NCBI GenBank assembly: GCA_036402055.1
Contig: DASWTQ010000297.1
Coordinates: 1 to 59,899 of the forward strand
Reading direction: 5' to 3'
Length of the DNA: 59,899 nucleotides
From: Herpetosiphonaceae bacterium
GTDB taxonomy: Bacteria; Chloroflexota; Chloroflexia; Chloroflexales; Kallotenuaceae
Shown here: piece after piece, positions 31,442 through 46,892 of the stretch
Numbering within the stretch: the stretch's first letter is position 1
How the letters are laid out: every line of letters starts with the position of its first letter
The notes under the pieces: generated by a model
The model's input: the letters and a program-made list of their open reading frames with translations, nothing else
Told to the model about the DNA's origin: nothing
Databases searched by the model: none
Translations under genes and position numbers: made by a program

Positions 31442-32746
31442 CTATTCTCCCTGCGCGGGTGTGTCAATCGATCGCAGCTGTGGATAAAGGTAGCCGATGA
31501 GCGTGGCGGCCAGCGGGACGATGCTCGCGCCCAGCAACATCAGCGCAACGCCGCGTCCTTCGCCGACGCCGATCACGGCGCCGACGCTGCCGGCCAGCGC
31601 GCCGTTCGGCATCAACAGCGGCTCGAAGACCTGGTCTGCCAGCGGCCCGACGACAAGATAGGTGGTCGGCAAGGTCGAGGAGCTGATCAGATAGCGGATG
31701 CTGAAGACCCGCCCCTGCAAATCCGGCTCGACCTGCTGCGACCAGATGGCCTGGTTGCAAGCGCTCAGCAGGGGAAAGCCTGCCAGCCCGATGAAGGCGG
31801 CCAGCGCGATCAGCGGCTCCCACGGGCGCAGACTGACCAGGATCAGACTCAGGCCGAGTAACAGGCCAAACGCGAAGACACCGGTGATCCGCCGGCGTGG
31901 CCCGCCCCACATGGCGAGAACGATTCCGCTCAACAGGGCTCCGCCGCCACCGGCCGAGAGAATCAGGCCCAGCTGCCGCTCGGACGTGAAGCTGAGCACC
32001 AGCGGCGACAAGAGCACTTGAAACACGCCAAACGCGAACATGATCGCCGTGACATACATCAGCAGCGCGAATAATCCGGGCCGCGCACGAATATAAGTCC
32101 AGCCATAACGCGCCTCGTGCCAGATCGAGCCGGCTGCGCGCGCGCCCTCCGCTGTTCGTTCCGGCGGCGGCAGCTGAACCAGCAGCAAGGAGCCGACGGC
32201 AAACGCAAACGAGAGCAGATCCAGCAGCAGGAGCCCACGCAGCGAGAGCAGCGCGATCAGCGCGCCGGCCATCAACGGCGCGACCGCCTCCGATAGCGCC
32301 TGGGCGGTCTGGATCATGCCGCTGGCGCGACCAATCTGGGATTTTGGTACCAGCACCGGCACGCTGGCAATGAAGGCCGTCCACTGAAAGATGTTGGTGC
32401 TTGATAGCAGCGTGACACCCAGGTAGATATGCCACAGCGCCAGCTGCTCGGCGTACACCAGGCCGAGCAGCAGCAGCACGACTCCCGCCGCGATGCTGTT
32501 GCAGGCGATCATGATGCGCTGGCGATCCCAGCGATCGATCAGCGCGCCGGCCAAGGGTAGCACCGCGCCACCCGGCAGAATCGCGCACAGCGAGATCAGC
32601 GTAAAACTTGTAACCGAGCCGGTCTGCTGATACACCCACACGCCGAGCGCAAAGCGCGTCAGCCCCGAGCCGATCAGCGAGACAAGCTGGCCCAGCCAGA
32701 GGATGCTGAACGCTGGAATGCCCTGTCGCCAGGTTGCCGCTCTCAT
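31442..32746 (-). CDS. MFS transporter (EntS/MFS_3-like, putative product exporter)
   Basis: 434 aa with about 12 hydrophobic segments. The N-terminus is FSILWLGQLVSLIGSGLTRFALGVWVYQQTGS. The start ATG overlaps the NRPS stop as ATGA (32743-32746). Confidence 0.75.
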   Translation of the reverse strand: MRAATWRQGIPAFSILWLGQLVSLIGSGLTRFALGVWVYQQTGSVTSFTLISLCAILPGGAVLPLAGALIDRWDRQRIMIACNSIAAGVVLLLLGLVYAEQLALWHIYLGVTLLSSTNIFQWTAFIASVPVLVPKSQIGRASGMIQTAQALSEAVAPLMAGALIALLSLRGLLLLDLLSFAFAVGSLLLVQLPPPERTAEGARAAGSIWHEARYGWTYIRARPGLFALLMYVTAIMFAFGVFQVLLSPLVLSFTSERQLGLILSAGGGGALLSGIVLAMWGGPRRRITGVFAFGLLLGLSLILVSLRPWEPLIALAAFIGLAGFPLLSACNQAIWSQQVEPDLQGRVFSIRYLISSSTLPTTYLVVGPLADQVFEPLLMPNGALAGSVGAVIGVGEGRGVALMLLGASIVPLAATLIGYLYPQLRSIDTPAQGE

Positions 32747-35700
32747 ACGTTGTCCCCCGCCTGCGCATCGGCGAGATACCGGGAGAGCAGCGCTGCGACG
32801 TGTTCCCCGAGCGGCTGCCTGAGCATCGTAAAATGGCTGCCCGGCGCCTGGTGAATAGTGAGTCGGCCCCTGATCCAGTGTCGCCAGCCTCGATCCTCGG
32901 GCACGCGCGGATCGCTGGTTTCCGAGGCGCGAATCAGCAGAACATCCTCCGTGTAGGATTGTGGATGATAGCGCAGCATGGCGTGATAGTTGGTTTTGAA
33001 GATCGTAAACAGATCGCGAATATCGCCGGGATTCAGCGTGGACGGCAGCTTTCCAAGCTGTATCGCCTGCTGTATGCTCGCGTCGAGCTGATCGGCGGGA
33101 TTGTCTGCTGCCGGCGAGTCGCTATCAGGCAGGTCAAGGCCCAGATCCTGAATAAACATCCGCAGCAAATCGGTTTCGTCAACCGACTCAGGAGCAGCCT
33201 GCTCCTCCGGCAGCGGCGCGTAGGTGTCGATCATGGCAACCAGCGTAGCTCGCTCACCGGTGCGACGGAGCTGTTGCGCCATCTCAAGCGCGATCAGCCC
33301 ACCCAGCGACCATCCGCCGAGCAGATACGGCCCGTGCGGAGCGATCTCGCGAATAGCCGCCAGATAAGCGCTTGCCATCTGCTCGATCGTTGTGTGCACG
33401 GTGGTTCCGCCCAGCCCCGAGGATTGCAAACCGTAGATCGGTTGATCGTGCGGCATAAGCTCGACCAGCCGGCTATAGGCCAGCACCTGACCGCCGCCCG
33501 GATGGATCAGGAACAGCGGCGGCCGTGATCCTCGCGTGCGCAGCCCGACTAGCGGTGTAGCCGCAGGTGCTGTCGTGCCGCGCAGCGCCGCCGCCAGCTG
33601 CTCGACGGTCGGGTTTTGCAGCAGGAGCGCCAGTGGAATCTCTTTTTCGAGCGCTGCGCGTAGCTCGTTGACGAGTCGGGCCGCTAGCAGCGAGTGACCG
33701 CCCAGCGCGAAGAAATTGTGAGTCACGCCGATCGGCGCGTGGCCCAGCACGCCCTCCCAGACTGCGACCAGCTGCCGTTCCAGCGCGTCGCGAGGAGCGA
33801 TCAGCGCGCTGGGATCGTCGATCGTCGTGTTGGGTGCGGGCAGCGCCTTGCGGTCGATCTTGCCGCTCGGCGTTTTTGGCAGGGTGGCCAGCTCCACAAA
33901 CAGCGATGGGATCATGTAGTCGGGGAGCTGCGCGCCGACTCGCTGGCGCAAGTCGGCAGAACCTAGAACCGGGTGCCCTCCGGGCGACCTAGAACCAGCT
34001 TCGCTTCCATCCCCTTGGTTCTTAGTTCTCGGTTCTCGGTTCTTAACCACGTACGCTACCAGGTGCTTCTCGCCCTTAGCGTCCTCGCGCACCACCACGA
34101 CGCACTCGTTGATGTCGGGATGCTGGGCCAGCGCGTGTTCGATCTCGCCGGTCTCGATGCGGAAGCCGCGCACTTTGACCTGGTGATCGATCCGCCCGAG
34201 GATTTCCACCGTGCCGTCGTCGCGCCAGCGGCCGAGGTCGCCCGTGCGCACCATGATCTGGCCGTCCTCGAAGGGACAGACCACAAAGCGCTCGGCCGTC
34301 AGCTCCGGGCGGAACAGGTAGCCGCGCGATACGCTCTCACCGGACACACACACCTCGCCCGCGATGCCGATGGGCTGCGGCTGCATGTGATCATCCACGA
34401 TGTAGATGCGATTGTTTTGCAGCGGCCGGCCCACCGTGATCGGCTTGCCCACATCCTCGGCGCGAATCGGCCCCAGAATGTTGATGTCGCTGATCTCGGT
34501 CAGGCCGTAGATATTGATGATCTCGACCGTCGATCCAAACTGGCCAAACACCGACTGAAGCAGGCGCTGCTCGATTTTCTCGCCGCCGATCAGCAGGTAG
34601 CGCAGCGCGTTGGCCGGCTGCTCCGGCGCGACCTCGTTCAGCACCGCCTGCATGTAGGACGGGACGGCATCGAGCAGATGGATCTGTTGATCGTTGAGAT
34701 AGCGCAGCAGCACGCGGCTGTTGAACTTGATCTCGTCCGAGATAATGTGCAGCGTGCGTCCGAAGATCAAGGTTGGGAAGATCTGGTTGACCGAGATGTC
34801 GAAGCTGATCGACGTGATCAGACCCGTGATCTGCACCTGCGGATCGTCAAAGTAGGCGCGCAGGCCATGCACGAGGTTGATCAATCCCTGCTGCTTGACC
34901 ATCACGCCCTTGGGCCGGCCCGTCGAGCCCGACGTGTAGATGATGTAGGCCAGGTGCTCCGGCAGCGCCGTGCGGGCTGGATTCGTCGCCGGATACGCCG
35001 CGAGTCGCTCCCAATCGGCGTCGAGACGGAAGATCTGCGCGGAGTGGTTGGGTAGGTTCCCGACCAGGCGATCTTGAGTCAGGAGCACCGGCGCCTGGCT
35101 GTGGCCAAGCATGTACTGGAGCCGGTCGGCGGGATAGTTGGGATCGAGCGGGACATAGGCGCCGCCCGCCTTGAGGATCGCCAGCATGCCGACGATCATC
35201 TCAAGCCCACGCTCGACCATCAGCGCGACCAGCACATCCGGCCCGACGCCCTGCGCCCGCAGATAATGCGCCAGCTGGTTGGCGCGCGCGTTCAGCTCGG
35301 CATAGCTCAGACTCGCGCCCTCATAGACGATCGCGGCGGTCTCGGGATTGCGCTCCACCTGCGCTTCGATCAGCTGATGCACGGCGGCATCGCGCGGATA
35401 CTCAGCCTCGGAGCGGTTCCAGTCGTGCAATATCTGCTGCTGCTCGGCGGCGCTCAACAGCGGCAGGTCAGTGATCCGCTGCTCCGGGTTGGCGACGATC
35501 GCTTCGAGGAGGCGCTGGAGCTGCTGGCCCATACGGACGATCGTCGCCGCCTCAAACAGATCGGTGCTGTACTCGATCATGCAGGTGAGACCCTGCGGCG
35601 TCTCGTTGATAAACAGCGTGAGATCGAACTTGGAGCTGGTATGCTCCGTGGCGAACTGCTCGACGGATAGTCCGCTAAACGGCGACGCCTGCGTCTCCTG

Positions 35701-38700
35701 GTGCGTCAAGACAAACAACACCTGGAAGAGCGGCGTGCGGCTCAGGTCGCGTGTGGGCTGAAGCTCCTCAACCAGCCGCTCAAACGGCAGCTCCTGATGT
35801 GCGTAGGCGTCGAGCGTCGTCGAGCGCACGCGGCCCAGGAGATCGACAAACGAGAGATCAGCCGCCAGGTCGGTACGCAGCACGAGCGTGTTGAGGAAAA
35901 AGCCCTGCATATGCTCGGTGCCTGGCTGCGCTCGGTTGGCGATCGGCGTGCCGACTGCAATGTCGCGCTGGCCTGTGTAGCGCTTGAGCAACACCTTGAA
36001 CGCGGCCAGATAGGTCATGAACAGCGTCACGCCGAGGCTGCGGCTCAGTTGTTGAACCGCAGCCGCCTGATCTGCGGGCAGCTCAAAGCTATGCAGCGCG
36101 CCACGATAGGTGCTTATGGGCGGGCGGGGATGATCGGCCGGCAGATCGAGATTGGCAAGGCCGTGAAGCTGGTTGGTCCAGTAGGCCAGCTGCTCCGTGA
36201 AGATCCGTCCTTGCATCCAGTCGCGCTGCCAGACCGCAAAGTCGGCATATTGCAGCTCCGGCTCAAGCAGCGGTGACGGCTCGTCGAGGCTGAACGCCTG
36301 GTAGAGCAGGCCCATCTCGTGCTTCAACAGCTCCAGCGACCACATATCCACGATGCTGTGATGCAGCACCAGGATCAAGACGTGTTCATCTTCGGCCAGC
36401 TTAAGCAGCGTCGTCGTGAGCAGCGGCCCGGATGCCAGATCGAAGCATTGCGCGCTCGTCTCCGCGATGATCCGGCGCGCGCGATGCGGCCGTTCTGCGG
36501 CGGCAACATCGGTCAGATCGATCAATCGCAGCGGCAGATCCAGCGCCGGGAGGATCTCCTGGAGCGGCTCTCCATTCTGCATGACATAACGTGTGCGCAG
36601 GATCGTGTGGCGGCGGATCAGCTCGTTGAAGCAGCGCTGCAAGATCACCGCCGAAAGCGGCCCCTGGAGATGCAGCGGCGAGACAACATTGTAGCTGCTG
36701 CTTTCTTCAAGCTGGTGCAAGAACCACAGCCGCTGCTGGCCGAACGAGAGCGGCAGCGGCTCGTCATGCCCGACGGGCCGGATCGGCGGGGCGTCCGCAA
36801 AGCCGGTGTGTCGCGTCTCCGCAATCATAGTGGCAAGACCGGCGATGGTCGGCATATCGAAGAAGCGCCGCAGCGGCACGACAACATCAAAGTGCTCGTG
36901 CACCTGCGTGATCATGCGCATCGCCAGCAGCGAGTGGCCACCCAGCGCGAAGAAATCGTCGGTAATGCCCAGCGCCGGCACTGCCAGCAGCGCGCGCCAG
37001 AGTGCGATCAGACGCTCCTCCAGCTCGTCACGCGGCGCCAGCAGTTCGCGCGCAGGAGCGGACAGACTTTGCGGCTGCAAGCGCCTGGCCTGAAGCAGCG
37101 CCTGCTCCTCGGCGCTCAGGATCGGCAGGCTGAGCACGCCCGCCGCTGGATTCTGCGTAGCCCGAGCCAGCAGCAGCAGAAAGTGGCGGCTGAGCGCGGC
37201 GATCGACTCGGCGTCGAACAGATCGCTGCTGTAGCCGATCAAGCCCTCGGCTCCGTCCGCGCTCTCGGTGATCGCCAGCGTCAGATCGAACTTGGCGCTC
37301 AGATAATCGACCGGCAGCAGGCGCATGGTGAAGGACGGCGTCGCATCGCCCGGCAGCGGCAGCGCCTGGTTGAGAACAAACATGACCTGAAACAACGGCG
37401 TGCGGCTGGGATCGCGTGGCGGATTCAGCGCTTCGACCAGCCGCTCGAACGGCAGATCTTGATGGGCCTGCGCTTCCAGCATCATGCTCTTGACACGCTC
37501 AAGCAACGCCAGCAAGCTGGGATCGTCGGCAAGATCAGTGCGCAGGACCAGCGTGTTGAGGAAGAAGCCGATCAGCGGCTCGGTCTCAGGGTGCGGCCGA
37601 TGCGCGATCGGCGAGCCGACGACGATGTCGGTCTGCGCGGTATAGTGTGCCAGCAGCGCCTGGAAAGCCGCGAGATAGACCATAAAATGCGTGGTGCGTG
37701 TCTGCTGGCTCAGCGCGCGAATCTGGGTAACGATCTGCTGGTCCACCGCGAAACGATGCGCTGCTCCGCGATGGCTCATCACCGACGGACGCGGGCGATC
37801 GGTGGGGAGCGCGAGGGCGCTGGGAAGATTGGCAAGCCGTGCCTGCCAGTAGCTTAGCTGCTGCTCGACGACCTCGTCCCGCAGCTGCTGGCGCTGCCAG
37901 ACGGCATAGTCGGCGTACTGAATCGGCAGCGGCGGCAAGGGCGATTCCCGGCCCTGTCGCAGCGCCTCGTATACGGCGCCCATCTCTTTCATCAACATAT
38001 CGACCGACCAGGCATCCGCGATGATGTGGTGGATGTTGACGATCAGGCGATAGGTCTGCTCGTCGCCGCAGAGCATGGTCACATAGACCAGCGGCCCGGC
38101 CTGTAGATCGAACGTGCGCAGCAGCTCGGCGCGCATCTGCTGCTCGGCGGCGGCCACAAAGGCATCATGCGGACGCTGCTCAAGGTGGATGATCGTCAGC
38201 GGAATGTGCAGCGCTGGCGCAATGATCTGCACCGGCTGCTGGCCGTGCAGGCTAAACGTGGTGCGCAGGATCTCGTGGCGGCGCACGATCTCGTTGAAGC
38301 TGCGCTCCATCAGCGCAAGATCGAGCTGTCCGCGCAGCTCGGCGGCCATGACGACGTTGTAGCCATTGCCCGCGCCGATCTGATCCAGCAGCCACAGGCG
38401 CTGCTGAGCGAAGGAAAGCGGCGGCGCCTCAGCGCCTGCGCGGCGTGGAATAACCTGTGCGGCCTCGCGGCTACCGCGCTGGGCTGCGCCGCGCAGCAGA
38501 CCCTGAAGCAGCGCCTGCTTCTTGGCCGAGAGCTGCTCTTTGCGGGCGGCAACTCGCGCCGAGCGGTTCAGATCGGTCTCCGGCTGCGCAGCTGTCGCCG
38601 CCTCGGCCACTCCCGCTGGTCGCTCCAGCTCCTGGATGATCGCCGCAACCGGCTGATCGGGCGTGGCTGTTACGCGCTCAAGCAGCCAGGTGAAATGCTC

Positions 38701-41700
38701 GACCAGGCGGATCATCGAGGCACGCTCAAAAAGCGCCGTGTTGTACTCGATCAGCCCGGTCAGCCCAGATTGCTGCTCGGTCAGGCTGAACGTTAGATCG
38801 AAGCGGGCGACATCGGCATAGGTGGGCACCAGCTCGATCTCAAGATCCGGCAGCTGAACGCTCTGGCTCAGGCCATTTTGCAAGACGAACATCACCTGCA
38901 CCAGCGGGGGACGTTTGGGATCGCGGCTGGCTCCCAGGCGCTCCACCAGCTTATCAAACGGCACTTCCTGATGATCGTAGGCGGCCAGTGTGGTGCAGCG
39001 AACCTGCTGTACCAGCTGGTGGAAGCTGGGCTGGCCGGTAAAATCGGTGCGGATCACCAGCGTGTTGACGAAGAAGCCGATCAGCCGCTCAAGCGCAGGA
39101 TGTGTCCGGTTCGCGATCGGAATGCCGACTTGCAGTTGATCCGGGTGGTTGGCATACCTGTGCAGCAGGAGCTTAAACGCCGCCAGCAATACCATGAACG
39201 GCGTTGCGTTAGTGGCCTGGCTCAACGACCGGACCCGTTCCACCAGATCCGCCGGAAGCGTAAACTCATAGATCGAGCCGGCAAAGGTCATCTGCGCCGG
39301 CCGTGGATGATCGGTGGGCAGATCCAGCGGTGGCAGCAGTGGTGCTCCCTGTGGCTGAAGCTGAGATTGCCAGTAGGCAAACTGCGGCTCCAGATCGCCG
39401 GCTTCGAGACGCCGGCGCTGCCACTGGCCAAAGTCGGCATACTGGATCTCCAGCTCCGGTAGCCGGGAAGCCAGTTCTGCGGCTGCGGGCTGCGCGTGCT
39501 CCCGGCGAAAAGCGCGATACAAGCTGGTCAGCTCCTGCGACCAAACGCCGACCGACCAGCCATCGGCGCAGATATGATGCACATTCAGCAGCAGCATGTG
39601 CTCATGGGTGCTGAGACGCAGCAGGGTTGCGCGCAGCAGCGGGCCGGTGGCAAGATCAAAGGGCTGATTGGCATCTCGGCGCATTCGGCTGTGCATTTCG
39701 GCCATGCGGGCGGCCGGCTCAAGCGCGCTCAAATCTTCGATCGGCAGACGGCCTGGCTGCGCGGGGTGGATGACGGCCACCGGCTGGCCTTCGATGTCGG
39801 CAAAAGTGGTGCGCAAAACCTCGTGCCGCCTGACGATCTCGCTCAGGCTGTGCTCCAGCGCCGGAATATCGAGATCGCCGCGCAGACGCAGGGCAAACGG
39901 CACGTTATACAGCGCGCTGCCCGGCATCAGCTGATCGAAGAACCAGAGGCGCTGCTGCGCAAACGACAACGGCTCGTGCTTCCGGCGCGGCTGTGGGCTG
40001 AGCGCCGGTCCTCGCTCGATCCGGGGCGCGGCGTCGATCACGGCTGCCAGGTCCGCGATCGTCGGATGTTCAAAGAGCGCCGCGATCGATAGCCCGAGGC
40101 CGTAGCGCTGATTAGCATGCGTGACGATCTGTGTGGCCAGCAGCGAGTGACCGCCGAGCGTGAAGAAATCGTCGTCGACGCTGACCACGGAGACACCCAG
40201 CACCTGCGCCCAGAGCCCTGCCAGATACGACTCGACTGATGTTCGCGGCGCAATAAGTTCGCTGTGACGCGCGGGCAGGTAGTCGGCAGGCGCGGGCAGC
40301 GCTTTACGATCGATTTTGCCGGCGGGAGTCTGCGGCAGCGTTTCAAGCGGGATGTACAGCGCGGGAACCATGTAGTCGGGCAAGGTCTCGCGCAGGGCGG
40401 CACGAATCTGCTGCTCGTCCAGCGTCTGCGCCGGAGCCGGCACCACATAGGCTACCAGTCGCTGATCTGCGGGACGTGGCTCGAACACCGCGACGATCGC
40501 CTGTGAGATGGCGGGTAGCGCCTCAAGCGCGGCCTCGATCTCGCCCAGCTCGATGCGCTGGCCACGAATCTTCACCTGGTGATCCGCTCGTCCGATGAAC
40601 TCAAACGATCCGTCGGCGCGGCGGCGAGCCAGATCGCCGGTTTTGTAGAGCCGTGTGCCGGGAGTAGAGCTGAACGGATCGGCCATAAACTTCTCGGCGG
40701 TGAGATCCGGCCGGTTCAGATAGCCGCGCGCAACGCCCATCCCGCCGATGTACATTTCGCCGATCTCGCCGGCTGGAACTTCCCGCAGCGCCCGATCGAG
40801 CAGATAGATCGCCTGATTGGTGCCCGGATAGCCGATCGGCAGCGGGTCGGGCAGCGGCTGCGCACCAGTCTGCGGCCAGCCCGTCGCGGCGATCGTGGCC
40901 TCCGTGGGACCGTACAGGTTGTACAGCGGGATCGACAGGCGGCGGAAGAACTGCGCCGCAAGCTCAGTCGTGACGGCCTCCGCGCCGGAGTATACCCGCC
41001 GTACGCTGGCAGCGCGCTCGGATAGATCGGGAGCGTCCAGCAGCAGACGCAGCGCCGACGGCACCAGAAAGAGCGTTGTCACCTGCTGCCGGGCGATCAG
41101 ATCAAGCAGGTAGGTCTGATCTTGATGCTTGTCGGGCGGCACGACCACCAGCGCCGCGCCCGCGACCAGCGGCGGGAACAGCTCCAGCACCGAGGCGTCG
41201 AAGCTGATCGGCGCTTTCAGCAGCGCTTTGTCGGCGCTATCCAGCGGGCTGATCTGCGCCAGCCAGGCCAGAAAGTTGCTCAGCGCCCCGTGGCTGATCA
41301 TCACACCTTTGGGGCGGCCGGTTGAGCCCGAGGTATAGATCACGTAGGCCAGGTTGTCGGAAGCGACATCCACGCCGGCTGTGCTGCCGGACGTCACGGG
41401 ATCGGCGGCCAGAGCAGGCGCATCCAGACACAGCACCTTTCCGGCATAGCCCGCCAGCGCGGCGCTGTAGCGCTGCTGAGTCAGCAGCAGTCCGGCCTGC
41501 GAGTCGTGCAGCATAAACTCGACGCGCTCGGCGGGATAGCTCGGCTCGATCGGCAGGTAGGCGCCGCCGGCCTTTAAAATCGCCAGGATCGCCACGATCA
41601 GCTCAGGCGAGCGATCCAGGTAGATGCCCACGATGACCTCAGGCCCGACTCCCGCGCGGCGCAGATGAGTCGCCAGTCGATTCGCCTGATCGTTCAGCTC

Positions 41701-43494
41701 GGCATAGCTTAGCTCGCGGCCTTCACAGCAAACCGCTGTGGCATTGGGTGTGCGCGCCGCCTGGGCCTCGATCAGCCGGTGAACGCCGCCGCTGCCTGTC
41801 GCCTGGGCCGCAGCCGGTCGCGGTGTCGAGTGCGGTGCTCGTGTCGCAAGCAGCCGGCGATCGATCTTGCCGGTCGCGGTCAGCGGCAGCGCATCGCGCA
41901 CGTCGATCAGCGAAGGAATCATGTATTCGGGTAGCTGCTCGTGCAAGAAGGCGCGGAGCGCGGATGGAAGATCCGAGCCGTTATTTGTTGCCTGCCCGGC
42001 GCGCGGGACGACATAGCCTACCAGCTGCTGCGCCCCGAGATCTCCCGGCGGCTCGTGCAGCACAACCACGGCTTCGCGGACGGCAGGATGCCGCGCCAGC
42101 ACGGCTTCGATCTCGCCCAGCTCGATGCGCAGGCCGCGCAGCTTGACCTGGTGATCGATGCGGCCAAGAAACGCCAGCCGGCCATCCGGCAGGTAGCGCA
42201 CGCGATCACCGGTGCGATACAGCCGCGCGCCGGGATCGTCGCCGAACGGATCGGGAAGGAAGCGCTCGGCGGTGAGATCCGGCCGGTTGAGGTAGCCCTG
42301 AGCCACGCCTTCGCCGCCGATGTACAGCTCGCCCGGCGCGCCGATCGAAACAAGATCGCCCTGCTGATCCAGGACATACAGCCGTGTGTTGGCGATCGGT
42401 CGCCCGATCGTGATCTCGTCGCCGGCGACGAGTCGCGCCGCGCTGGCGTTGGCGGTCGTCTCCGTGGGGCCGTACAAATTCCAGAGCTGAAGCTCCGGCA
42501 ATGCCCGCAGCGTACGCGCGACCAGCTCCTCGGTGACGTGCTCGCCGCCGAGCATCAGCTGCACCAGACTACCGGCCGGCAGCACGATCCCGCGCGCATC
42601 GATCTCATCCAGCAGCGCGCTCCACAACGTCGGCACGCAGTTAAGCGCAACCTGCTGCCGTCGTGCGATCGCCGCGAGCAGCGCCGGCGGATGGCTGACG
42701 ATCTCGTTCGGGAGAATCCACACCGCCCGCCCACGCAGCAGCGGAACAAAGATCTGTTTGAGCGAAGCGTCGAAGGAAAGCCTGGTTACAAACGGCAGCC
42801 ACTGCACGCTGTCCGCGATCAATGTGTGCTCGGCCCAGCACAGATAGCTGATCAGGCTGCGATGCGTGATCAGCGTGCCTTTCGGCTGGCCGGTCGAGCC
42901 CGACGTGTAGAGCACATAGGCCGGGCTATCTGCGGTAGCGCGACATGCAGGCGCGGCAGCAGCGGACTGCTGGCTGATCTCGGTCCAGGCGCGATCCAGG
43001 TTCAGGATCGAGCACTTGCCGGCGCTGAGCAGGTGCTGCGTGGTTGTATCGGCGATCAGCAGGCGCGCGCGCGAGTCCTGAAGAATGAAGCTCAGGCGGT
43101 CGGCGGGATCGGCGGGATCGAGCGGCAGGTAGGCTGCGCCCGCTTTCAGCACGGCCAGCAGACTGATCAGTAGATCGCGCGAGCGCGGCAGGCACAGCGC
43201 AACCAGCGTACCCGGGCCGACGCCCCGCGCTTGAAGCAGATGGCCGAGTCGATTGGCGCGCTGGTCCAGGGCGGCGAAGCTGAGCACGGTCTCGTCGTGG
43301 ATGATCGCCGCCGCTGCGGGAGTGCGCGCCGCCTGCTCCGCGATCAGATCGTGGATGCGGGCATCATGCGGAAAATCGAGCGTGGTTGCGTTCCATGCGT
43401 AGAGCAGCTTCTGCCGTTCGGCAGCGCCGGGCTCCGTGCCGGTCTGCTCCGAAAAAGGCAGCGTTGCCGCCGGTTGTTCGTCGAGCGGATTCAT
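32743..43494 (-). CDS. NRPS, A - A - T - C - C - T - C - A - T - TE
   Basis: 3583 aa, numbered from 43494.
- A1 is about aa 28-550 (nt 41845-43413; YVLYTSGSTGQPKG, NLYGPTETT, YRTGDRVR, TATGKIDRR).
- A2 is about aa 570-1070 (nt 40285-41787; [41 protein letters not shown]).
- T1 is about aa 1083-1155 (nt 40030-40248; FFTLGGHSL).
- C1 is about aa 1172-1615 (nt 38650-39981; HHICADGWS).
- A linker spans aa 1616-1688.
- C2 is about aa 1689-2120 (nt 37135-38430; HHIIADAWS).
- T2 is about aa 2153-2225 (nt 36820-37038; FFALGGHSL).
- C3 is about aa 2243-2670 (nt 35485-36768; HHSIVDMWS).
- A3 is about aa 2690-3220 (nt 33835-35427).
- T3 is about aa 3232-3305.
- TE is about aa 3320-3575 (GWSLGG).
Hand-extracted codes are A1 DAKNMGLANK, A2 DALFYGLIAK and A3 DINDLGIDIK, none of which I could assign. 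Confidence 0.9.
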   Translation of the reverse strand: MNPLDEQPAATLPFSEQTGTEPGAAERQKLLYAWNATTLDFPHDARIHDLIAEQAARTPAAAAIIHDETVLSFAALDQRANRLGHLLQARGVGPGTLVALCLPRSRDLLISLLAVLKAGAAYLPLDPADPADRLSFILQDSRARLLIADTTTQHLLSAGKCSILNLDRAWTEISQQSAAAAPACRATADSPAYVLYTSGSTGQPKGTLITHRSLISYLCWAEHTLIADSVQWLPFVTRLSFDASLKQIFVPLLRGRAVWILPNEIVSHPPALLAAIARRQQVALNCVPTLWSALLDEIDARGIVLPAGSLVQLMLGGEHVTEELVARTLRALPELQLWNLYGPTETTANASAARLVAGDEITIGRPIANTRLYVLDQQGDLVSIGAPGELYIGGEGVAQGYLNRPDLTAERFLPDPFGDDPGARLYRTGDRVRYLPDGRLAFLGRIDHQVKLRGLRIELGEIEAVLARHPAVREAVVVLHEPPGDLGAQQLVGYVVPRAGQATNNGSDLPSALRAFLHEQLPEYMIPSLIDVRDALPLTATGKIDRRLLATRAPHSTPRPAAAQATGSGGVHRLIEAQAARTPNATAVCCEGRELSYAELNDQANRLATHLRRAGVGPEVIVGIYLDRSPELIVAILAILKAGGAYLPIEPSYPAERVEFMLHDSQAGLLLTQQRYSAALAGYAGKVLCLDAPALAADPVTSGSTAGVDVASDNLAYVIYTSGSTGRPKGVMISHGALSNFLAWLAQISPLDSADKALLKAPISFDASVLELFPPLVAGAALVVVPPDKHQDQTYLLDLIARQQVTTLFLVPSALRLLLDAPDLSERAASVRRVYSGAEAVTTELAAQFFRRLSIPLYNLYGPTEATIAATGWPQTGAQPLPDPLPIGYPGTNQAIYLLDRALREVPAGEIGEMYIGGMGVARGYLNRPDLTAEKFMADPFSSTPGTRLYKTGDLARRRADGSFEFIGRADHQVKIRGQRIELGEIEAALEALPAISQAIVAVFEPRPADQRLVAYVVPAPAQTLDEQQIRAALRETLPDYMVPALYIPLETLPQTPAGKIDRKALPAPADYLPARHSELIAPRTSVESYLAGLWAQVLGVSVVSVDDDFFTLGGHSLLATQIVTHANQRYGLGLSIAALFEHPTIADLAAVIDAAPRIERGPALSPQPRRKHEPLSFAQQRLWFFDQLMPGSALYNVPFALRLRGDLDIPALEHSLSEIVRRHEVLRTTFADIEGQPVAVIHPAQPGRLPIEDLSALEPAARMAEMHSRMRRDANQPFDLATGPLLRATLLRLSTHEHMLLLNVHHICADGWSVGVWSQELTSLYRAFRREHAQPAAAELASRLPELEIQYADFGQWQRRRLEAGDLEPQFAYWQSQLQPQGAPLLPPLDLPTDHPRPAQMTFAGSIYEFTLPADLVERVRSLSQATNATPFMVLLAAFKLLLHRYANHPDQLQVGIPIANRTHPALERLIGFFVNTLVIRTDFTGQPSFHQLVQQVRCTTLAAYDHQEVPFDKLVERLGASRDPKRPPLVQVMFVLQNGLSQSVQLPDLEIELVPTYADVARFDLTFSLTEQQSGLTGLIEYNTALFERASMIRLVEHFTWLLERVTATPDQPVAAIIQELERPAGVAEAATAAQPETDLNRSARVAARKEQLSAKKQALLQGLLRGAAQRGSREAAQVIPRRAGAEAPPLSFAQQRLWLLDQIGAGNGYNVVMAAELRGQLDLALMERSFNEIVRRHEILRTTFSLHGQQPVQIIAPALHIPLTIIHLEQRPHDAFVAAAEQQMRAELLRTFDLQAGPLVYVTMLCGDEQTYRLIVNIHHIIADAWSVDMLMKEMGAVYEALRQGRESPLPPLPIQYADYAVWQRQQLRDEVVEQQLSYWQARLANLPSALALPTDRPRPSVMSHRGAAHRFAVDQQIVTQIRALSQQTRTTHFMVYLAAFQALLAHYTAQTDIVVGSPIAHRPHPETEPLIGFFLNTLVLRTDLADDPSLLALLERVKSMMLEAQAHQDLPFERLVEALNPPRDPSRTPLFQVMFVLNQALPLPGDATPSFTMRLLPVDYLSAKFDLTLAITESADGAEGLIGYSSDLFDAESIAALSRHFLLLLARATQNPAAGVLSLPILSAEEQALLQARRLQPQSLSAPARELLAPRDELEERLIALWRALLAVPALGITDDFFALGGHSLLAMRMITQVHEHFDVVVPLRRFFDMPTIAGLATMIAETRHTGFADAPPIRPVGHDEPLPLSFGQQRLWFLHQLEESSSYNVVSPLHLQGPLSAVILQRCFNELIRRHTILRTRYVMQNGEPLQEILPALDLPLRLIDLTDVAAAERPHRARRIIAETSAQCFDLASGPLLTTTLLKLAEDEHVLILVLHHSIVDMWSLELLKHEMGLLYQAFSLDEPSPLLEPELQYADFAVWQRDWMQGRIFTEQLAYWTNQLHGLANLDLPADHPRPPISTYRGALHSFELPADQAAAVQQLSRSLGVTLFMTYLAAFKVLLKRYTGQRDIAVGTPIANRAQPGTEHMQGFFLNTLVLRTDLAADLSFVDLLGRVRSTTLDAYAHQELPFERLVEELQPTRDLSRTPLFQVLFVLTHQETQASPFSGLSVEQFATEHTSSKFDLTLFINETPQGLTCMIEYSTDLFEAATIVRMGQQLQRLLEAIVANPEQRITDLPLLSAAEQQQILHDWNRSEAEYPRDAAVHQLIEAQVERNPETAAIVYEGASLSYAELNARANQLAHYLRAQGVGPDVLVALMVERGLEMIVGMLAILKAGGAYVPLDPNYPADRLQYMLGHSQAPVLLTQDRLVGNLPNHSAQIFRLDADWERLAAYPATNPARTALPEHLAYIIYTSGSTGRPKGVMVKQQGLINLVHGLRAYFDDPQVQITGLITSISFDISVNQIFPTLIFGRTLHIISDEIKFNSRVLLRYLNDQQIHLLDAVPSYMQAVLNEVAPEQPANALRYLLIGGEKIEQRLLQSVFGQFGSTVEIINIYGLTEISDINILGPIRAEDVGKPITVGRPLQNNRIYIVDDHMQPQPIGIAGEVCVSGESVSRGYLFRPELTAERFVVCPFEDGQIMVRTGDLGRWRDDGTVEILGRIDHQVKVRGFRIETGEIEHALAQHPDINECVVVVREDAKGEKHLVAYVVKNREPRTKNQGDGSEAGSRSPGGHPVLGSADLRQRVGAQLPDYMIPSLFVELATLPKTPSGKIDRKALPAPNTTIDDPSALIAPRDALERQLVAVWEGVLGHAPIGVTHNFFALGGHSLLAARLVNELRAALEKEIPLALLLQNPTVEQLAAALRGTTAPAATPLVGLRTRGSRPPLFLIHPGGGQVLAYSRLVELMPHDQPIYGLQSSGLGGTTVHTTIEQMASAYLAAIREIAPHGPYLLGGWSLGGLIALEMAQQLRRTGERATLVAMIDTYAPLPEEQAAPESVDETDLLRMFIQDLGLDLPDSDSPAADNPADQLDASIQQAIQLGKLPSTLNPGDIRDLFTIFKTNYHAMLRYHPQSYTEDVLLIRASETSDPRVPEDRGWRHWIRGRLTIHQAPGSHFTMLRQPLGEHVAALLSRYLADAQAGDNV
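33955..34047 (-). repeat. In-frame repeat-like insertion in the A8-A9 loop of A3, with inverted heptamer arrays
   Basis: Extra codons KNREPRTKNQGDGSEAGSRSPGGHPVLGSADL lie between LVAYVV and LPDYMIP. On the plus strand the DNA reads AGAACC TAGAACC ... CTAGAACC ... TGGTTCT TAGTTCT CGGTTCT CGGTTCT. AGAACC units on one side therefore face their reverse complement GGTTCT on the other. Confidence 0.6.
38431..38649 (-). other. 73-aa C1-C2 interdomain linker carrying a docking-head-like motif
   Basis: Linker aa 1616-1688 contains ARKEQLSAKKQALLQGLLRGAAQ (nt 38479-38547). This matches the N-termini of the two C-starting proteins in the window, LSPKRRALLAALLKEQG (12986-13045) and TTEQKRALVAELLQRKIAA (46812-46880). 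It is absent from the ordinary T-to-C linkers. Confidence 0.55.
41770..41862 (-). other. Direct A1-A2 junction with no carrier domain
   Basis: The A10 motif of A1 (LPLTATGKIDRRLLATRAPHSTPRPAAAQATGSGG) runs straight into the A1-core start of A2 (VHRLIEAQAARTPNATAVCCEGRELSYAELN). The linker is about 20 aa, and no GGxS carrier motif occurs between them. Confidence 0.8.
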
Positions 43495-43544: not shown

Positions 43545-46500
43545 TCAGTCGATCTCGATCGCATCCTCATCCATGGCCTCGATCTTTTCGAGCAGCGCCT
43601 CCTCGGCCACCAGCGCCAGGTCGGCAACGGTCGGCGCTTCAAAAAAGGCCCGGATCGGAATATCGACCTCAAAGGCGCTGCGGATGCGCGAGGCAAATTG
43701 AATCGCCAGGAGCGAGTGCAGGCCAAACTCAAAAAAGTTATCGTGCACGCCGATCCGGGTAATGCCGGAGATCTGCTGGAAGATGTCGGCGATAACTTCT
43801 TCGGCCAGGCTGCTGGGCGCAGTGTATGCGCGCTCCGAGGCGGCGCGATCCATATCGGGAGCCGGCAGCGCGCGGCGATCGATCTTGCCGCTGGCGGTGC
43901 GAGGCAGCGTTTCCAGCAGCACGATATGGCCGGGCACCATATAGTCAGGCAGGCGCTTTTTCAAGAAGAGCCGCAGATCCTGGACGGCTAGCTCGGCGCC
44001 CGAGATCGGCTCCGCATAGGCGACTAGCTGCGTGCCGCCGGGCATGTCGCGCGTAACCACCACCGCCGTCGAACATGACGGGTGCTGCTGCGCGACGGCC
44101 TCGATCTCGCCCAGCTCGACGCGGAAGCCGCGCAGCTTGACCTGTCGATCTGTGCGTCCGAGAAATTCTATCGTGCCGTCGGCAAGATAGCGCGCCCGAT
44201 CGCCGGTTTTGTAGAGCCGCGCGCCGGGTGTAGCGCTGAACGGATGCGGAAGAAAGCGCTCGGCGGTCAGATGCGGCTGTGCCAGGTAGCCGCGTGCTAG
44301 CCCCGCGCCGCCAAGATACAGCTCGCCCGGCACGCCGATCGGGACAGGCTGACCACGCCGGTCGAGAATATAGATCTGGGTGTTGCCAAAGGGCTGCCCG
44401 ATCGGCACCAGCTGATCGGCGGCGCGCGACTCGGCCAGGGCGTCGTACCAGGTGCTGTCGATCGTGGCTTCGGTGACGCCGAACGAGTTGACGACGCGCG
44501 TGCTGGGGCTGCACAGCCGGCGGATCTGATCGAACTCCTCCATGTACCAGCTATCCGAGCCGCACACCAGCAGCCGCAGCGTGTCTAGCCGCAGGTCGTT
44601 TTCGGCCAGGTACTGCATCAGCGGTCGCAGCACGGCCGGCACAAACTCGGCGGCGTCGATCTGTTCGCGGCGGATCAGGTCGTACAGGTGATCCGGCGCC
44701 AGCAGCAGATCGCGAGGACACAGCACGAGCGTTCCGCCGGAGCAGAGAGCGCGTACCAGGTCGCCCACGAACACGTCAAAGGTAACATTGGCCATCTGCA
44801 AATGGCGGCGCGCGGTGCTGAGGTCGTAGGTTTCTTCCCAGGCGCGGTAGCTGTTGACCAGATTGCGATGCGGGATCATCACGCCTTTGGGCCGACCGGT
44901 CGAGCCCGAAGTGTAGATGATATAGGCCAGATTGTCGGCCGTGCTCCGGCACTGCGGCGCGCTCTCCGGTCTCTGCGCGATGGCCGGCGCGTCGCCGTCC
45001 AGGCACACGATCTGCGCGTCATGCTCCGGCATCGCATCGACCAGCCGCTGCTGCGTGATCACGATGGCCGCGCCGGTGTCGGACAGGATCGCGTGCTGGC
45101 GCTCGGACGGAAGATCGGGATCGAGCGGCGTGTAGGCAGCGCCGGCCTTGAGCACGGCCAGGATCGCTACCACCAGCTCCAGCGAGCGCTCAAGGCAGAT
45201 GCCGACCCGCATCTCTGGCTCGATGCCCAGCGCTTGCAGGTGGTGCGCCAGCTGGTTGGCCCGCCGATCAAGCTCGGCATAGCTCAGGCGCTCGCTCCGC
45301 CAGACAACGGCGGTCGCGGCAGGTGTGCGGGCGGCCTGCTCCGCGATCAAGTCGTGGATGCAGCGATCGACGGTGTAGGGCCGCGCGGTTGTATTCCAGT
45401 CAACCAGCAGCTGCCGGCGCTCGACCGAATCCAGCAGCGGGATCTCGTCGATCCGCTGGTCCGGGTTCGCCGCCATGCTCTGCAACACCGTCTCGAAATG
45501 CCGGGCGAACTGCTCGATCGTCGTCGCGTCATACAGATCGACATTGTACTCAAGGTGGCCGCTGATCTCTTCGCGGAAGCCCTCGACCCAGATCGTGAGG
45601 TCGTAGTTGGCGCGGCCGTTGTCGTCGAGTGTCGAGCGGGTCAGCGTCAGGTTGGGCAGCTGCGAGACCGGCGGCACCGGCGTATTTTGCAGCACCATCA
45701 TGATCTGGAAGAGCGGCGTGTGGCTCAGGTGACGCTCGACCTTCAGCTCTTCCAGCAGCTTCTCGAAGGGCAGGTCTTGATGCGCATAGGCGCCCAGTGT
45801 TACATCGCGGACCCGGTGCAGCAGCTCGCGCACAGTTGGCCGTCCCGCCAGCGAGGTGCGCAGCACCAGGTTGTTGACGAAGAAGCCCAGCAGCGGCTCC
45901 AGCACGCTCTGGCTGCGATTGGCGATATAGGTGCCGACAGGAACGTCGTCGTGCTCCGTGTAGCGATACAGGACCAGCTTCAAGGCCGTGAGCAGCGTCA
46001 TGAACAGGGTGATGCCCTCGCTCTTGCTGAGCTGTTTCAGCGCTGTAGAAAGCTGCGGCGAGAAGGCGAAGGGCAGGATCGCGCCACAGTACGTCTGCAT
46101 CGACGGTCGTGGCCGGTCGGTCGGCAGCGACAAAAACGCCGGCGTATCGGCGAGCTGTTGCCGCCAGTAGCTCAGCAGGCGCTCCAGCGCGCCGCCGGGT
46201 GCGTCGGGCGCGAGCCACTGGTGCTGCCAGTAGGCATAATCGGCGTACTGCACCGCGAGCGGCGGGAGTGGATCGGGCTGTCCCATCAGCGCGGCGGCGT
46301 ACACCATGCCGATCTCGCGCACGACGATCGGGCCTGACCAGCCATCGGAGATGATATGGTGCATCGTCAGGAGAATGTAGTGATCTTTCTCGTCCAGGCG
46401 CAGCAGCGAGGCGCGGATCAGCGGCCCGACTGCCAGATCGAAGGGCGTGGCGGCCTCCTCGCGGGCCAGGCGCTGCACCTCGGCCTCGCGCTCCTCCGGC

Positions 46501-46892
46501 GGCAGATGGGTCAGCGAGATCAGCGGCAGCGGCACATGCAGCACGGGCGGGATCACCTGCCGGGGCCGTCCGTCGACGCTGACAAAGGTCGTGCGCAGGA
46601 TCTCGTGGCGCTGCACAACATCGTTCAGGCTGCGCTGCAACATCGCAATATTGAGCGTGCCGCTGAGACGGTAGAGCGAGAAGAGATTGTACGCGGCTAC
46701 TCCCGGCTCCAGCTGATCCAGAAACCACTGGCGCAGCTGTGGGAAGGAGAGCGGCATATCTTCCGTGCGCGGCACCGGCACGATCGGCGGCATGGCCGAG
46801 GCCGGCAGCGCTTGCTGTTTGGCCGCGATCTTACGCTGGAGCAGCTCCGCCACCAGGGCGCGTTTTTGTTCAGTCGTCAGGTTATCCGACAT
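43545..46892 (-). CDS. NRPS, C - A(Orn-like) - T
   Basis: 1115 aa. C is about aa 44-480 (nt 45453-46763, HHIISDGWS). A is about aa 500-1010 (nt 43863-45395), with [36 protein letters not shown] and SGKIDRR. T is about aa 1025-1095 (nt 43608-43820, FFEFGLHSL). The hand-extracted code DVGEVGSIDK matches the published Orn code DVGEIGSIDK at 9 of 10 positions. Confidence 0.9.
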   Translation of the reverse strand: MSDNLTTEQKRALVAELLQRKIAAKQQALPASAMPPIVPVPRTEDMPLSFPQLRQWFLDQLEPGVAAYNLFSLYRLSGTLNIAMLQRSLNDVVQRHEILRTTFVSVDGRPRQVIPPVLHVPLPLISLTHLPPEEREAEVQRLAREEAATPFDLAVGPLIRASLLRLDEKDHYILLTMHHIISDGWSGPIVVREIGMVYAAALMGQPDPLPPLAVQYADYAYWQHQWLAPDAPGGALERLLSYWRQQLADTPAFLSLPTDRPRPSMQTYCGAILPFAFSPQLSTALKQLSKSEGITLFMTLLTALKLVLYRYTEHDDVPVGTYIANRSQSVLEPLLGFFVNNLVLRTSLAGRPTVRELLHRVRDVTLGAYAHQDLPFEKLLEELKVERHLSHTPLFQIMMVLQNTPVPPVSQLPNLTLTRSTLDDNGRANYDLTIWVEGFREEISGHLEYNVDLYDATTIEQFARHFETVLQSMAANPDQRIDEIPLLDSVERRQLLVDWNTTARPYTVDRCIHDLIAEQAARTPAATAVVWRSERLSYAELDRRANQLAHHLQALGIEPEMRVGICLERSLELVVAILAVLKAGAAYTPLDPDLPSERQHAILSDTGAAIVITQQRLVDAMPEHDAQIVCLDGDAPAIAQRPESAPQCRSTADNLAYIIYTSGSTGRPKGVMIPHRNLVNSYRAWEETYDLSTARRHLQMANVTFDVFVGDLVRALCSGGTLVLCPRDLLLAPDHLYDLIRREQIDAAEFVPAVLRPLMQYLAENDLRLDTLRLLVCGSDSWYMEEFDQIRRLCSPSTRVVNSFGVTEATIDSTWYDALAESRAADQLVPIGQPFGNTQIYILDRRGQPVPIGVPGELYLGGAGLARGYLAQPHLTAERFLPHPFSATPGARLYKTGDRARYLADGTIEFLGRTDRQVKLRGFRVELGEIEAVAQQHPSCSTAVVVTRDMPGGTQLVAYAEPISGAELAVQDLRLFLKKRLPDYMVPGHIVLLETLPRTASGKIDRRALPAPDMDRAASERAYTAPSSLAEEVIADIFQQISGITRIGVHDNFFEFGLHSLLAIQFASRIRSAFEVDIPIRAFFEAPTVADLALVAEEALLEKIEAMDEDAIEID

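What the first reader, a model, noticed from the sequence alone, without database searches (positions are those of the whole stretch)
40285..43413. Two complete adenylation domains fused head to tail with no carrier protein between them
A1 ends with an intact A10 (TATGKIDRRLL). About 20 residues later A2 begins (VHRLIEAQAARTPNATAV...). Both keep all the core motifs I could check (A3 SGSTGxPKG, A5 NLYGPTE, A7 Y(R/K)TGD, A8 [20 protein letters not shown], A10 GK). Their hand-extracted pocket residues differ (DAKNMGLANK versus DALFYGLIAK), so they are not simple duplicates. Only one T follows them. The same protein contains an A-less module (C2-T2) about 1100 residues downstream. I infer that one A loads T1 in cis and the other serves T2 at a distance. 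Alternatively, the pair gives alternative starters on T1.
Basis: partly seen in the sequence, partly recalled or inferred. Interest (0 to 1): 0.65.

Follow-up and report, generated by a model that had tools for sequence, protein, structure and literature searches.

The report
Two intact adenylation domains fused together
A peptide-making enzyme from an uncultured soil bacterium starts with two complete, different amino-acid-activating domains and has one carrier domain after them. The same protein has a later module with no activating domain, so the extra one probably supplies that module, a rare layout that has not been tested.

Summary
ORF 32743-43494 (minus strand, 3583 aa) reads A1-A2-T1-C1-C2-T2-C3-A3-T3-TE.

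**Both A domains are intact**
- Each matches the adenylation models end to end. TIGR01733 gives 437 bits for A1 and 469 for A2, against a cut-off of 317.
- Each keeps motifs A3, A5, A7, A8 and A10, plus D235 and K517.
- They are 43% identical to each other.
- A 25-residue Ala/Pro/Thr/Gly-rich linker joins them, with no room for a carrier domain.

**The junction is real**
- It is present in independent contigs from two samples.
- It is also present in a ~91% identical relative from another study.
- Against that relative, A1 shows mostly synonymous change (25 synonymous, 13 non-synonymous codons).
- A1 belongs to a recurring specificity class found in ordinary modules elsewhere, so it is not a relic like the first A of PyrG or AulA.

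**Context**
- Counting the upstream Orn C-A-T protein, the line holds 4 C, 4 A and 4 T domains.
- The C2-T2 joint still carries a whole A-T linker, as if an A domain had been cut out cleanly.

**Reading and verdict**
- My best reading (about 40%) is that A2 loads T1 and A1 loads the A-less T2. No loading has been shown.
- One unrelated A-A-T protein was found elsewhere.
- This is a new variant of a known kind and is moderately interesting.

The parts
32743..43494 (-). NRPS gene, 3583 aa: A1-A2-T1-C1-(docking-like helix)-C2-T2-C3-A3-T3-TE
   Evidence: ORF list and translation. Pfam on the whole protein and on pieces. An AAGGA ribosome-binding site lies 5 nt before the ATG.
41845..43413 (-). A1, a complete adenylation domain (aa 28-550) with code DAKNMGLANK. 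It starts with a C-A linker remnant (AERQKLLYAWNATTLDFPHD). It has no LPxP motif after A10.
41782..41856 (-). A1-A2 linker, 25 aa (RLLATRAPHSTPRPAAAQATGSGGV), rich in Ala, Pro, Thr and Gly, with no carrier domain
   Evidence: Contigs of runs X1, X2 and X4 span it.
40297..41781 (-). A2, a complete adenylation domain (aa 572-1066) with code DALFYGLIAK. The canonical RKALPAP linker joins it to T1.
40036..40227 (-). T1 carrier domain (LGGHSL), the only carrier after the A-A pair
38641..39981 (-). C1 condensation domain (HHICADGWS), with no epimerase motifs
38488..38544 (-). Basic helix RKEQLSAKKQALLQGLLRG in the C1-C2 spacer. It resembles the N-terminal heads of the Orn protein and of the plus-strand NRPS.
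Evidence: Read directly from the sequence.
37093..38421 (-). C2 condensation domain (HHIIADAWS)
36997..37128 (-). C2-T2 joint. It holds the start of a C-A linker (LPILSAEEQALLQ) followed directly by a full-length A-T linker (ARRLQPQSLSAPARELLAPRDELEERL). This is the footprint of a clean loss of an A domain.
   Evidence: Comparison with the A2-T1 and A3-T3 linkers.
36823..37017 (-). T2 carrier domain of the A-less module (LGGHSL)
33859..35367 (-). A3 adenylation domain, code DINDLGIDIK, a possible alternative loader of T2
43545..46892 (-). Upstream C0-A0-T0 protein with Orn code DVGEVGSIDK. It has a basic N-terminal head and an acidic C-terminal tail.

Best explanation
This is a genuine nonlinear NRPS in which both fused adenylation domains are active.

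Proposed roles (inferred):
- A2 is joined to T1 by a canonical LPxP linker and loads T1 in cis.
- A1 has no carrier of its own and has lost the LPxP motif. It acts as the long-range loader of T2, the carrier of the A-less C2-T2 module about 1600 residues downstream in the same polypeptide or in a second copy of it.

Proposed route of the chain (inferred):
- The main polyketide-Orn chain probably enters the protein at C2, not at the N-terminus. The acidic tail of the Orn protein would dock on the basic helix between C1 and C2.
- That makes A1-A2-T1-C1 a side arm. C1 would add the T1-bound amino acid, most plausibly to the second amine of Orn.
- C2 would then pass the product to the residue that A1 placed on T2.

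What is shown: domain integrity, junction anatomy, conservation in a relative, purifying selection on A1, and the 4:4:4 domain balance.

What is inferred: every loading and condensation step.
For: - Both A domains match the models over their full length, above curated cut-offs, and keep all catalytic motifs.
- Against a ~91% identical relative in run X4, A1 shows 25 synonymous and 13 non-synonymous codon changes, a rough dN/dS of 0.2. Pocket residues D242, A243 and K246 change only synonymously. The C1-C2 region gives a similar ratio, 24 to 11.
- The relative carries both the A1-A2 joint and the C1-C2 joint.
- The A1 code class DAKN.G(L/I)(A/V)NK recurs in A domains of ordinary A-T or C-A-T modules. 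These are also the closest relatives of A1, at 48-54% identity.
- C0-A0-T0 together with this protein gives 4 C, 4 A and 4 T domains.
- The C2-T2 joint keeps a whole A-T linker.
- No free-standing A domain lies on the 59.9-kb contig.
- A2, A3 and A0 have RxALPxP after A10, but A1 does not. LPxP-like motifs follow 624 of 730 A10 motifs in the retrieved NRPSs.
- The N-terminus of the protein lacks the basic head found before C2 and at the N-termini of the Orn and plus-strand NRPSs.
Against: - There is no biochemical data and no product.
- I found no precedent for an N-terminal A domain of an A-A pair loading a carrier 1600 residues away.
- In both published tandem-A modules (PyrG and AulA) the first A domain is inactive or dispensable.
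- A3 lies much nearer to T2 and could load it, as shared A domains do in other nonlinear NRPSs.
- The relative is only about 9% diverged. Its differences were read from short contigs with incomplete listings, so the selection estimate is rough.
- No diverged orthologue with the same architecture was found to test long-term conservation.
- The unrelated A-A-T protein P0312 is followed by a normal C-A module. This shows that A-A-T can exist without an obvious A-less partner, although that contig ends early.
Confidence: 0.4

Rival explanations
1. Both A1 and A2 load T1, either as alternative starters that give two product series or one after the other. T2 is loaded by the neighbouring A3 or is skipped.
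For: - T1 is the only carrier near both domains.
- The independent A-A-T protein P0312 pairs a Gly code (DILQLGMVWK) with an Ala-like code (DLFNAALTYK) in front of one T and a normal C-A module. That looks like a pair of alternative starters.
- Shared A domains that serve A-less modules are known from thalassospiramide.
Against: - A1 lacks the LPxP linker motif that normally positions a cis carrier.
- This reading leaves the exact 4:4:4 balance of C, A and T domains as a coincidence.
- The A1 and A2 pockets look very different (polar with Lys239 against hydrophobic). That is unusual for interchangeable starters that C1 must both accept.
Confidence: 0.25
2. A1 is a catalytically silent or dispensable relic, kept as a structural scaffold, as in PyrG and AulA.
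For: Both published tandem-A modules behave this way. A1 has no carrier of its own.
Against: - A1 keeps the A3 P-loop, D235, A5, A7, A8 and the A10 lysine that PyrG-A1 has lost.
- It scores above the TIGR01733 cut-off over the full model.
- Its dN/dS against the relative is about 0.2, with synonymous-only change at pocket positions.
- Unlike PyrG and AulA, there is no KR domain and no keto-acid-type pocket.
Confidence: 0.17
3. A1 works on a partner outside this protein, for example a free-standing carrier or acceptor encoded elsewhere in the genome. Alternatively it forms an amide directly, without a carrier.
For: A1 has no cis carrier.
Against: No free carrier or partner gene lies on the contig. 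The A-less T2 in the same protein is the simpler client.
Confidence: 0.12
4. The A-A joint is an assembly artefact, either a chimeric join or a collapsed T-C segment.
For: The window is a metagenome contig, and NRPS repeats are prone to misassembly.
Against: - Independent Logan contigs from two samples span the joint with 0-1 differences.
- A ~91% identical relative from another study has the same joint without indels.
- The joint lies in unique linker sequence, not in a conserved motif.
Confidence: 0.03

Closest known systems
PyrG (pyridomycin, Streptomyces pyridomyceticus) and AulA (auriculamide, Herpetosiphon aurantiacus): A-A-KR-PCP modules
   Same: Two adenylation domains sit head to tail with no carrier between them, followed by one carrier (PMC10510592 section 5.4.1; PMC5238615).
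   Different: - In those proteins the first A is degenerate (PyrG lacks A3 and the catalytic Lys) or dispensable (AulA).
- The active A takes a 2-oxo acid, and a KR domain follows.
- Here both A domains are intact amino-acid types with D235, there is no KR, and an A-less module sits in the same protein.
Nonlinear NRPSs with A-less modules (thalassospiramide; WS9326A; from my own knowledge also yersiniabactin HMWP2 and viomycin VioA/VioI)
   Same: A C-T module without its own A must be loaded by an A domain located elsewhere (PMC10510592 section 5.4.2).
   Different: In those systems an A domain already serving its own carrier is shared, or separate A-T plus shuttle proteins are used. Here a supernumerary carrier-less A domain is fused in front of another A, so the count of A and T domains stays equal.
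P0312, an uncharacterised metagenomic A-A-T protein (1149 aa, Logan run SRR33230222)
   Same: It aligns colinearly over 98% of the A1-A2 query at 43% identity. Both of its A domains keep the core motifs, one T follows, and its first A also lacks LPxP.
   Different: - Its codes are Gly- and Ala-like.
- Its joint keeps the WNAT..YP C-A linker in front of the second A, which ours does not, so the two fusions arose independently.
- It is a stand-alone initiation protein followed by a normal C-A gene.
Icosalide synthetase IcoA tandem C domains
   Same: Two C domains sit back to back, so that a second chain or acyl group enters mid-line.
   Different: That comparison concerns the C1-C2 pair, not the A-A pair. 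I did not test it here.

Membership tests
NRPS amino-acid adenylation domain (ANL superfamily, TIGR01733 / PF00501 + PF13193) | Full-length match above the curated cut-off | tested here: met
   A1 scores 436.9 bits and A2 468.7 bits on TIGR01733 (cut-off 317.4), covering positions 1-409 of 409. Pfam AMP-binding covers 2-384 of 384 and AMP-binding_C 1-76 in both.
NRPS amino-acid adenylation domain (ANL superfamily, TIGR01733 / PF00501 + PF13193) | Core motifs A3 (P-loop), A5, A7, A8 and the A10 Lys; D235 for the alpha-amino group | tested here: met
   Both domains have YTSGSTGxPKG, NLYGPTE, Y(R/K)TGD, GRxDHQVKxRGxRIELGEI and GKIDR, with D at position 235 and K at 517.
NRPS amino-acid adenylation domain (ANL superfamily, TIGR01733 / PF00501 + PF13193) | Substrate-dependent adenylation and carrier loading | not testable with these tools
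   This needs ATP-PPi exchange and loading assays.
PyrG/AulA-type tandem A module (A*-A-KR-PCP) | First A degenerate or dispensable | tested here: not met
   A1 keeps A3 and K517 and is under purifying selection. Dispensability itself cannot be tested here.
PyrG/AulA-type tandem A module (A*-A-KR-PCP) | KR domain between A2 and the carrier; 2-oxo-acid pocket | tested here: not met
   There is no KR domain in the protein. Both pockets start with D235.
Nonlinear NRPS with an A-less module loaded from elsewhere | A C-T module with an intact carrier serine and no A domain | tested here: met
   C2 (aa 1692-2134) is followed directly by T2 (aa 2160-2224, LGGHSL).
Nonlinear NRPS with an A-less module loaded from elsewhere | Loading of that carrier by a distant A domain | not testable with these tools
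   Only stoichiometry (4 C, 4 A, 4 T) and linker anatomy speak for it.

The most novel reading that the evidence does not exclude
A carrier-less adenylation domain has been physically moved to the N-terminus of the synthetase. There it works as a dedicated long-range loader for an internal A-less module. The assembly line is convergent: the side arm A2-T1-C1 and the polyketide chain both acylate one ornithine, which is presented in trans between the tandem C domains. This would be the first case in which both members of an A-A pair are needed, each for a different carrier.
Probability: 0.3. Interest if true: 0.7.

Novelty: new variant of a known kind. Interest (0 to 1): 0.5.

Why it matters
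If A1 really loads T2, adenylation domains need not sit next to their carriers even within one polypeptide. They could then be moved by evolution without loss of function. That bears directly on NRPS engineering, where A-T linker rules are treated as strict, and on software that predicts products from module order. antiSMASH-style colinear predictions would misread this cluster. It would also give a natural system for measuring how far an A domain can reach.

If A1 turns out to be a spare starter or a relic, the finding is a curiosity that adds a third and fourth example to PyrG and AulA.

Tried and rejected
**Full-length orthologues.** A protein search with residues 1-1100 gave only single-A matches, at most 52% identity over 48% of the query. 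The protein is a singleton cluster.

**Junction-bearing fragments.** A 301-aa junction query found nothing that covered more than 66%.

**GTDB species genomes.** A scan with a 195-aa junction query returned 8 loci, and all matched only the A2 half.

**Generic DNA pattern.**
- The pattern was an A10 GKxDR motif, then 237-297 nt, then the KAGGAY motif. It hit only the real junction in the window.
- Against JGI metagenome contigs it gave 2 loci. Both are one ordinary A-T protein with a chance GKxDR near its N-terminus.
- Sensitivity is low because the pattern requires a GGC codon.

**tblastn of the junction against plasmids.**
- 84 records had at least 80% coverage.
- The two I inspected were BLAST over-extension into the canonical C-A linker (no GK motif), not A-A.
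- I did not inspect the other 82.

**Recent translocation of A1 from the C2-T2 module.** I tested this by comparing DNA at the linker remnants and found no similarity beyond consensus.

**Common origin of A1 with C2 or T2.** I looked for this through shared best-hit modules. All domains are at most 52% identical to anything retrieved, so the test was uninformative.

**Structure prediction of A1-A2-T1.** I dropped it. MAFFT placed all 80 homologues on A2, leaving A1 without an alignment. The tool also returns no inter-domain geometry.

**Substrate prediction.** Substrate could not be predicted beyond the pocket character. A1 is polar with Lys239, loosely Glu/Gln-like by my recollection of published codes. 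A2 is hydrophobic.
Full report
**What is there**

The finding lies in one ORF, 32743-43494 on the minus strand, 3583 aa. Pfam finds three AMP-binding/AMP-binding_C pairs, three condensation domains, three carrier domains and one thioesterase.

Scans of excised pieces and motif positions give the order:

| Domain | Residues |
|---|---|
| A1 | 28-550 |
| A2 | 572-1066 |
| T1 | 1090-1153 |
| C1 | 1172-1618 |
| C2 | 1692-2134 |
| T2 | 2160-2224 |
| C3 | 2247-2689 |
| A3 | 2710-3212 |
| T3, then TE | follow A3 |

.

The gene has its own AAGGA ribosome-binding site, 50 nt after the stop of the preceding gene. There is therefore no room for a missing domain upstream.

**Integrity of the two A domains**

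- Each covers Pfam AMP-binding positions 2-384 of 384 (A1 266.9 bits, A2 323.1 bits) and AMP-binding_C 1-76.
- Each covers NCBIfam TIGR01733 positions 1-409 of 409, at 436.9 and 468.7 bits against a cut-off of 317.4. A3 scores 419.5.
- Both carry YTSGSTGxPKG, FDAS, NLYGPTE, Y(R/K)TGD, GRxDHQVKxRGxRIELGEI and GKIDR.
It reproduces the published code DAWTIAAICK at the published positions.
- A1 and A2 are 43.3% identical. Any other pair of A domains in the window is 40-48% identical, so this is not a recent duplication.

**The joint**

After the A10 motif of A1 comes RLLATRAPHSTPRPAAAQATGSGGV (25 aa, rich in Ala, Pro, Thr and Gly). A2 then starts at HRLIEAQ. The reading frame is continuous, so no carrier is hidden there.

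A2, A3 and the Orn-module A0 are followed by R(K/R)ALPAP, the LPxP element of A-T linkers. A1 has RRLLATRAP instead. The closest relatives of A1 all have it, and the first A of the independent A-A-T protein P0312 also lacks it. The role of LPxP in positioning the cis carrier is from my own knowledge of the A-T linker literature.

A1 begins with the tail of a C-A linker (AERQKLLYAWNATTLDFPHD). It therefore descends from an elongation module that lost its C domain.

**Is it an assembly artefact?**

The window is from a soil metagenome.
- An independent Logan contig of run X1 covers 40528-42121 with one difference.
- In a second sample, X2, a contig covers 41713-42026 with none.
- Run X4, from a different study, holds a relative at about 91-93% DNA identity. 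Its contigs cover the A1-A2 joint (41655-41889, 21 differences, no indel), parts of A1 (42363-42531 and 42713-43230, with one in-frame 3-nt indel) and the C1-C2 spacer (38265-38693).
- The joint lies in unique linker sequence, not in a repeated motif.

I put an artefact at about 3%.

**Selection**

I classified the differences listed for the X4 contigs in the minus-strand frame.

| Region | Synonymous codon changes | Non-synonymous | Rough dN/dS |
|---|---|---|---|
| A1 | 25 | 13 | 0.19 |
| C1 end and C2 | 24 | 11 | 0.16 |
| A2 (17 of 23 changed codons at aa 584-754) | 10 | 13 | 0.47 |

The A1 ratio uses about 185 synonymous and 496 non-synonymous sites. Pocket residues D242, A243 and K246 change only synonymously. 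Non-synonymous change per site is alike in all three regions, at 0.020-0.026.

Caveats:
- Differences near contig ends are not listed by the tool.
- The contigs are short, and their belonging to one relative is inferred.
- Divergence is only about 9%.

Within those limits, A1 is not decaying.

**A1 belongs to a normal specificity class**

I extracted codes from 854 A-domain hits in the first retrieved protein sets, and again from the 120 proteins retrieved. The pattern DAKN.G(L/I)(A/V)NK recurs:
- P0259 DAKNYGLANK
- P0243 DAKNLGIANK
- P0003 DAKNLGLVNK
- P0262 DAKNFGLAN-
- P0146 DAKIFGLANK

These domains are also the best sequence matches to A1, at 48-54% identity. Where the sequence continues beyond them, they sit in ordinary modules with their own T domain.

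I cannot name the substrate. Lys239 and the polar positions 278 and 331 suggest a polar or acidic side chain. The A2 pocket is hydrophobic, and its nearest code is DALFLGMIVK at 7 of 10 positions.

**Context**

Upstream on the same strand lie:
- an A-T loader cut by the contig end, with the Glu-like code DGKDLGVVDK
- two KS-AT-KR-DH-ACP proteins
- a C0-A0-T0 protein with the code DVGEVGSIDK, which I recall as one conservative change from the published Orn code

With that protein the line has 4 C, 4 A and 4 T domains.

The Orn protein and the plus-strand NRPS start with a basic helix (TEQKRALVAELLQRK and SPKRRALLAALLKEQ). The same kind of helix (SAKKQALLQGLLRG) lies about 30 aa before C2, inside the C1-C2 spacer. 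The N-terminus of the A-A protein is acidic and lacks it. The Orn protein ends in an acidic tail (EEALLEKIEAMDEDAIEID).

None of C1-C3 has epimerase motifs.

The C2-T2 joint reads LPILSAEEQALLQ (the start of a C-A linker) and then ARRLQPQSLSAPARELLAPRDELEERL. The second part aligns along its whole length with the A-T linkers of A2-T1 and A3-T3. An A domain appears to have been removed cleanly from an ancestral C2-A-T2 module.

No free-standing A domain is on the contig.

**Mechanism**

My best reading, at about 40%:
- A2 loads T1 in cis.
- A1, which is carrier-less and lacks LPxP, loads T2.
- The polyketide-Orn chain enters at C2.
- C1 transfers the T1 residue, most plausibly to the second amine of Orn held on T0 between C1 and C2.
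- C2, C3 and TE finish the product.

Every loading and condensation step is inferred.

Rivals:
- Both A domains load T1, and A3 or skipping deals with T2 (25%).
- A1 is a silent scaffold, as in PyrG and AulA (17%).
- A1 serves a partner outside the contig (12%).
- Artefact (3%).

**Comparison with what is known**

The literature library yielded only two tandem-A cases.
- In PyrG, the first A lacks A3 and the catalytic Lys (PMC10510592 section 5.4.1).
- AulA is A1-A2-KR-PCP, and its first A is dispensable for activating 3-methyl-2-oxovalerate (PMC5238615).
- Our pair fails the defining features of that type: both domains are intact, both have amino-acid pockets, and no KR domain is present.

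A-less modules served from elsewhere are known from thalassospiramide and WS9326A. From my own knowledge they are also known from HMWP2 and viomycin. In those systems the donor A is shared or sits on a separate A-T protein. It is not a supernumerary A fused to another A.

**How rare is it?**

Searches for orthologues or junction fragments found none. A generic DNA pattern for an A10-to-next-A joint found no other case in JGI metagenome contigs, though its sensitivity is low.

A search with A1-A2 alone found one colinear hit among the top 120. P0312 is a 1149-aa A-A-T protein with a Gly code and an Ala-like code. Its joint keeps the WNAT..YP linker before the second A, so the fusion is independent of ours. 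A normal C-A gene follows it.

Two earlier notes of this scan (e1-4187504 and e1-2687931) report further A-A pairs in other genomes. I did not check them.

The layout is therefore rare but recurrent. What sets this one apart is the matching A-less module in the same polypeptide.

**Verdict**

- This is a new variant of a known kind, with interest 0.5.

Noticed in passing
window 36997-37128 (-): The C2-T2 joint keeps the first part of a C-A linker and a full A-T linker (RRLQPQ in place of RKALPAP). This points to a clean in-frame loss of an A domain from an ancestral C-A-T module.
   Followed up: partly
window 58200-59858 (-): The loading A-T protein, cut by the contig end, has code DGKDLGVVDK. 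As I recall the published Glu code DAKDLGVVDK, it matches 9 of 10 positions. That implies a Glu-type starter for the two PKS modules.
   Followed up: no
window 12965-19177 (+): The plus-strand 2070-aa NRPS is C-A-T-E-C. Its middle 'condensation' hit has the epimerase motifs EGHGRE, RTVGWF and FNYLG, so it is not a second tandem-C case.
   Followed up: partly
protein P0243 (1714 aa, NCBI, contig 37959 nt): Its architecture reads C-A-T-A-T, with only about 134 aa (one carrier) between two full A domains and no C domain between them. The first A has the same DAKNLGIANK code class as A1.
   Followed up: no
window 43545-46892 (-), T0: The carrier domain of the Orn protein has FGLHSL instead of the usual GGHSL around the phosphopantetheine serine. 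The loader carrier has LGAHSL.
   Followed up: no
window 33859-35367 (-), A3: A3 has an unusual code, DINDLGIDIK, with two acidic pocket positions, and a Gly/Ser/Pro-rich insert of about 30 aa between A8 and A10.
   Followed up: no
L009 1287-8799 / L010 (JGI soil metagenome contigs): The same cassette occurs on two contigs: a stand-alone A-T, a P450 and a C-A-T-TE. My pattern picked it up only because of a chance GKxDR near the A-T N-terminus.
   Followed up: partly
window 42960-42966: The ~91% identical relative in run X4 has a 3-nt in-frame deletion inside A1, in the variable region between motifs A2 and A3.
   Followed up: no
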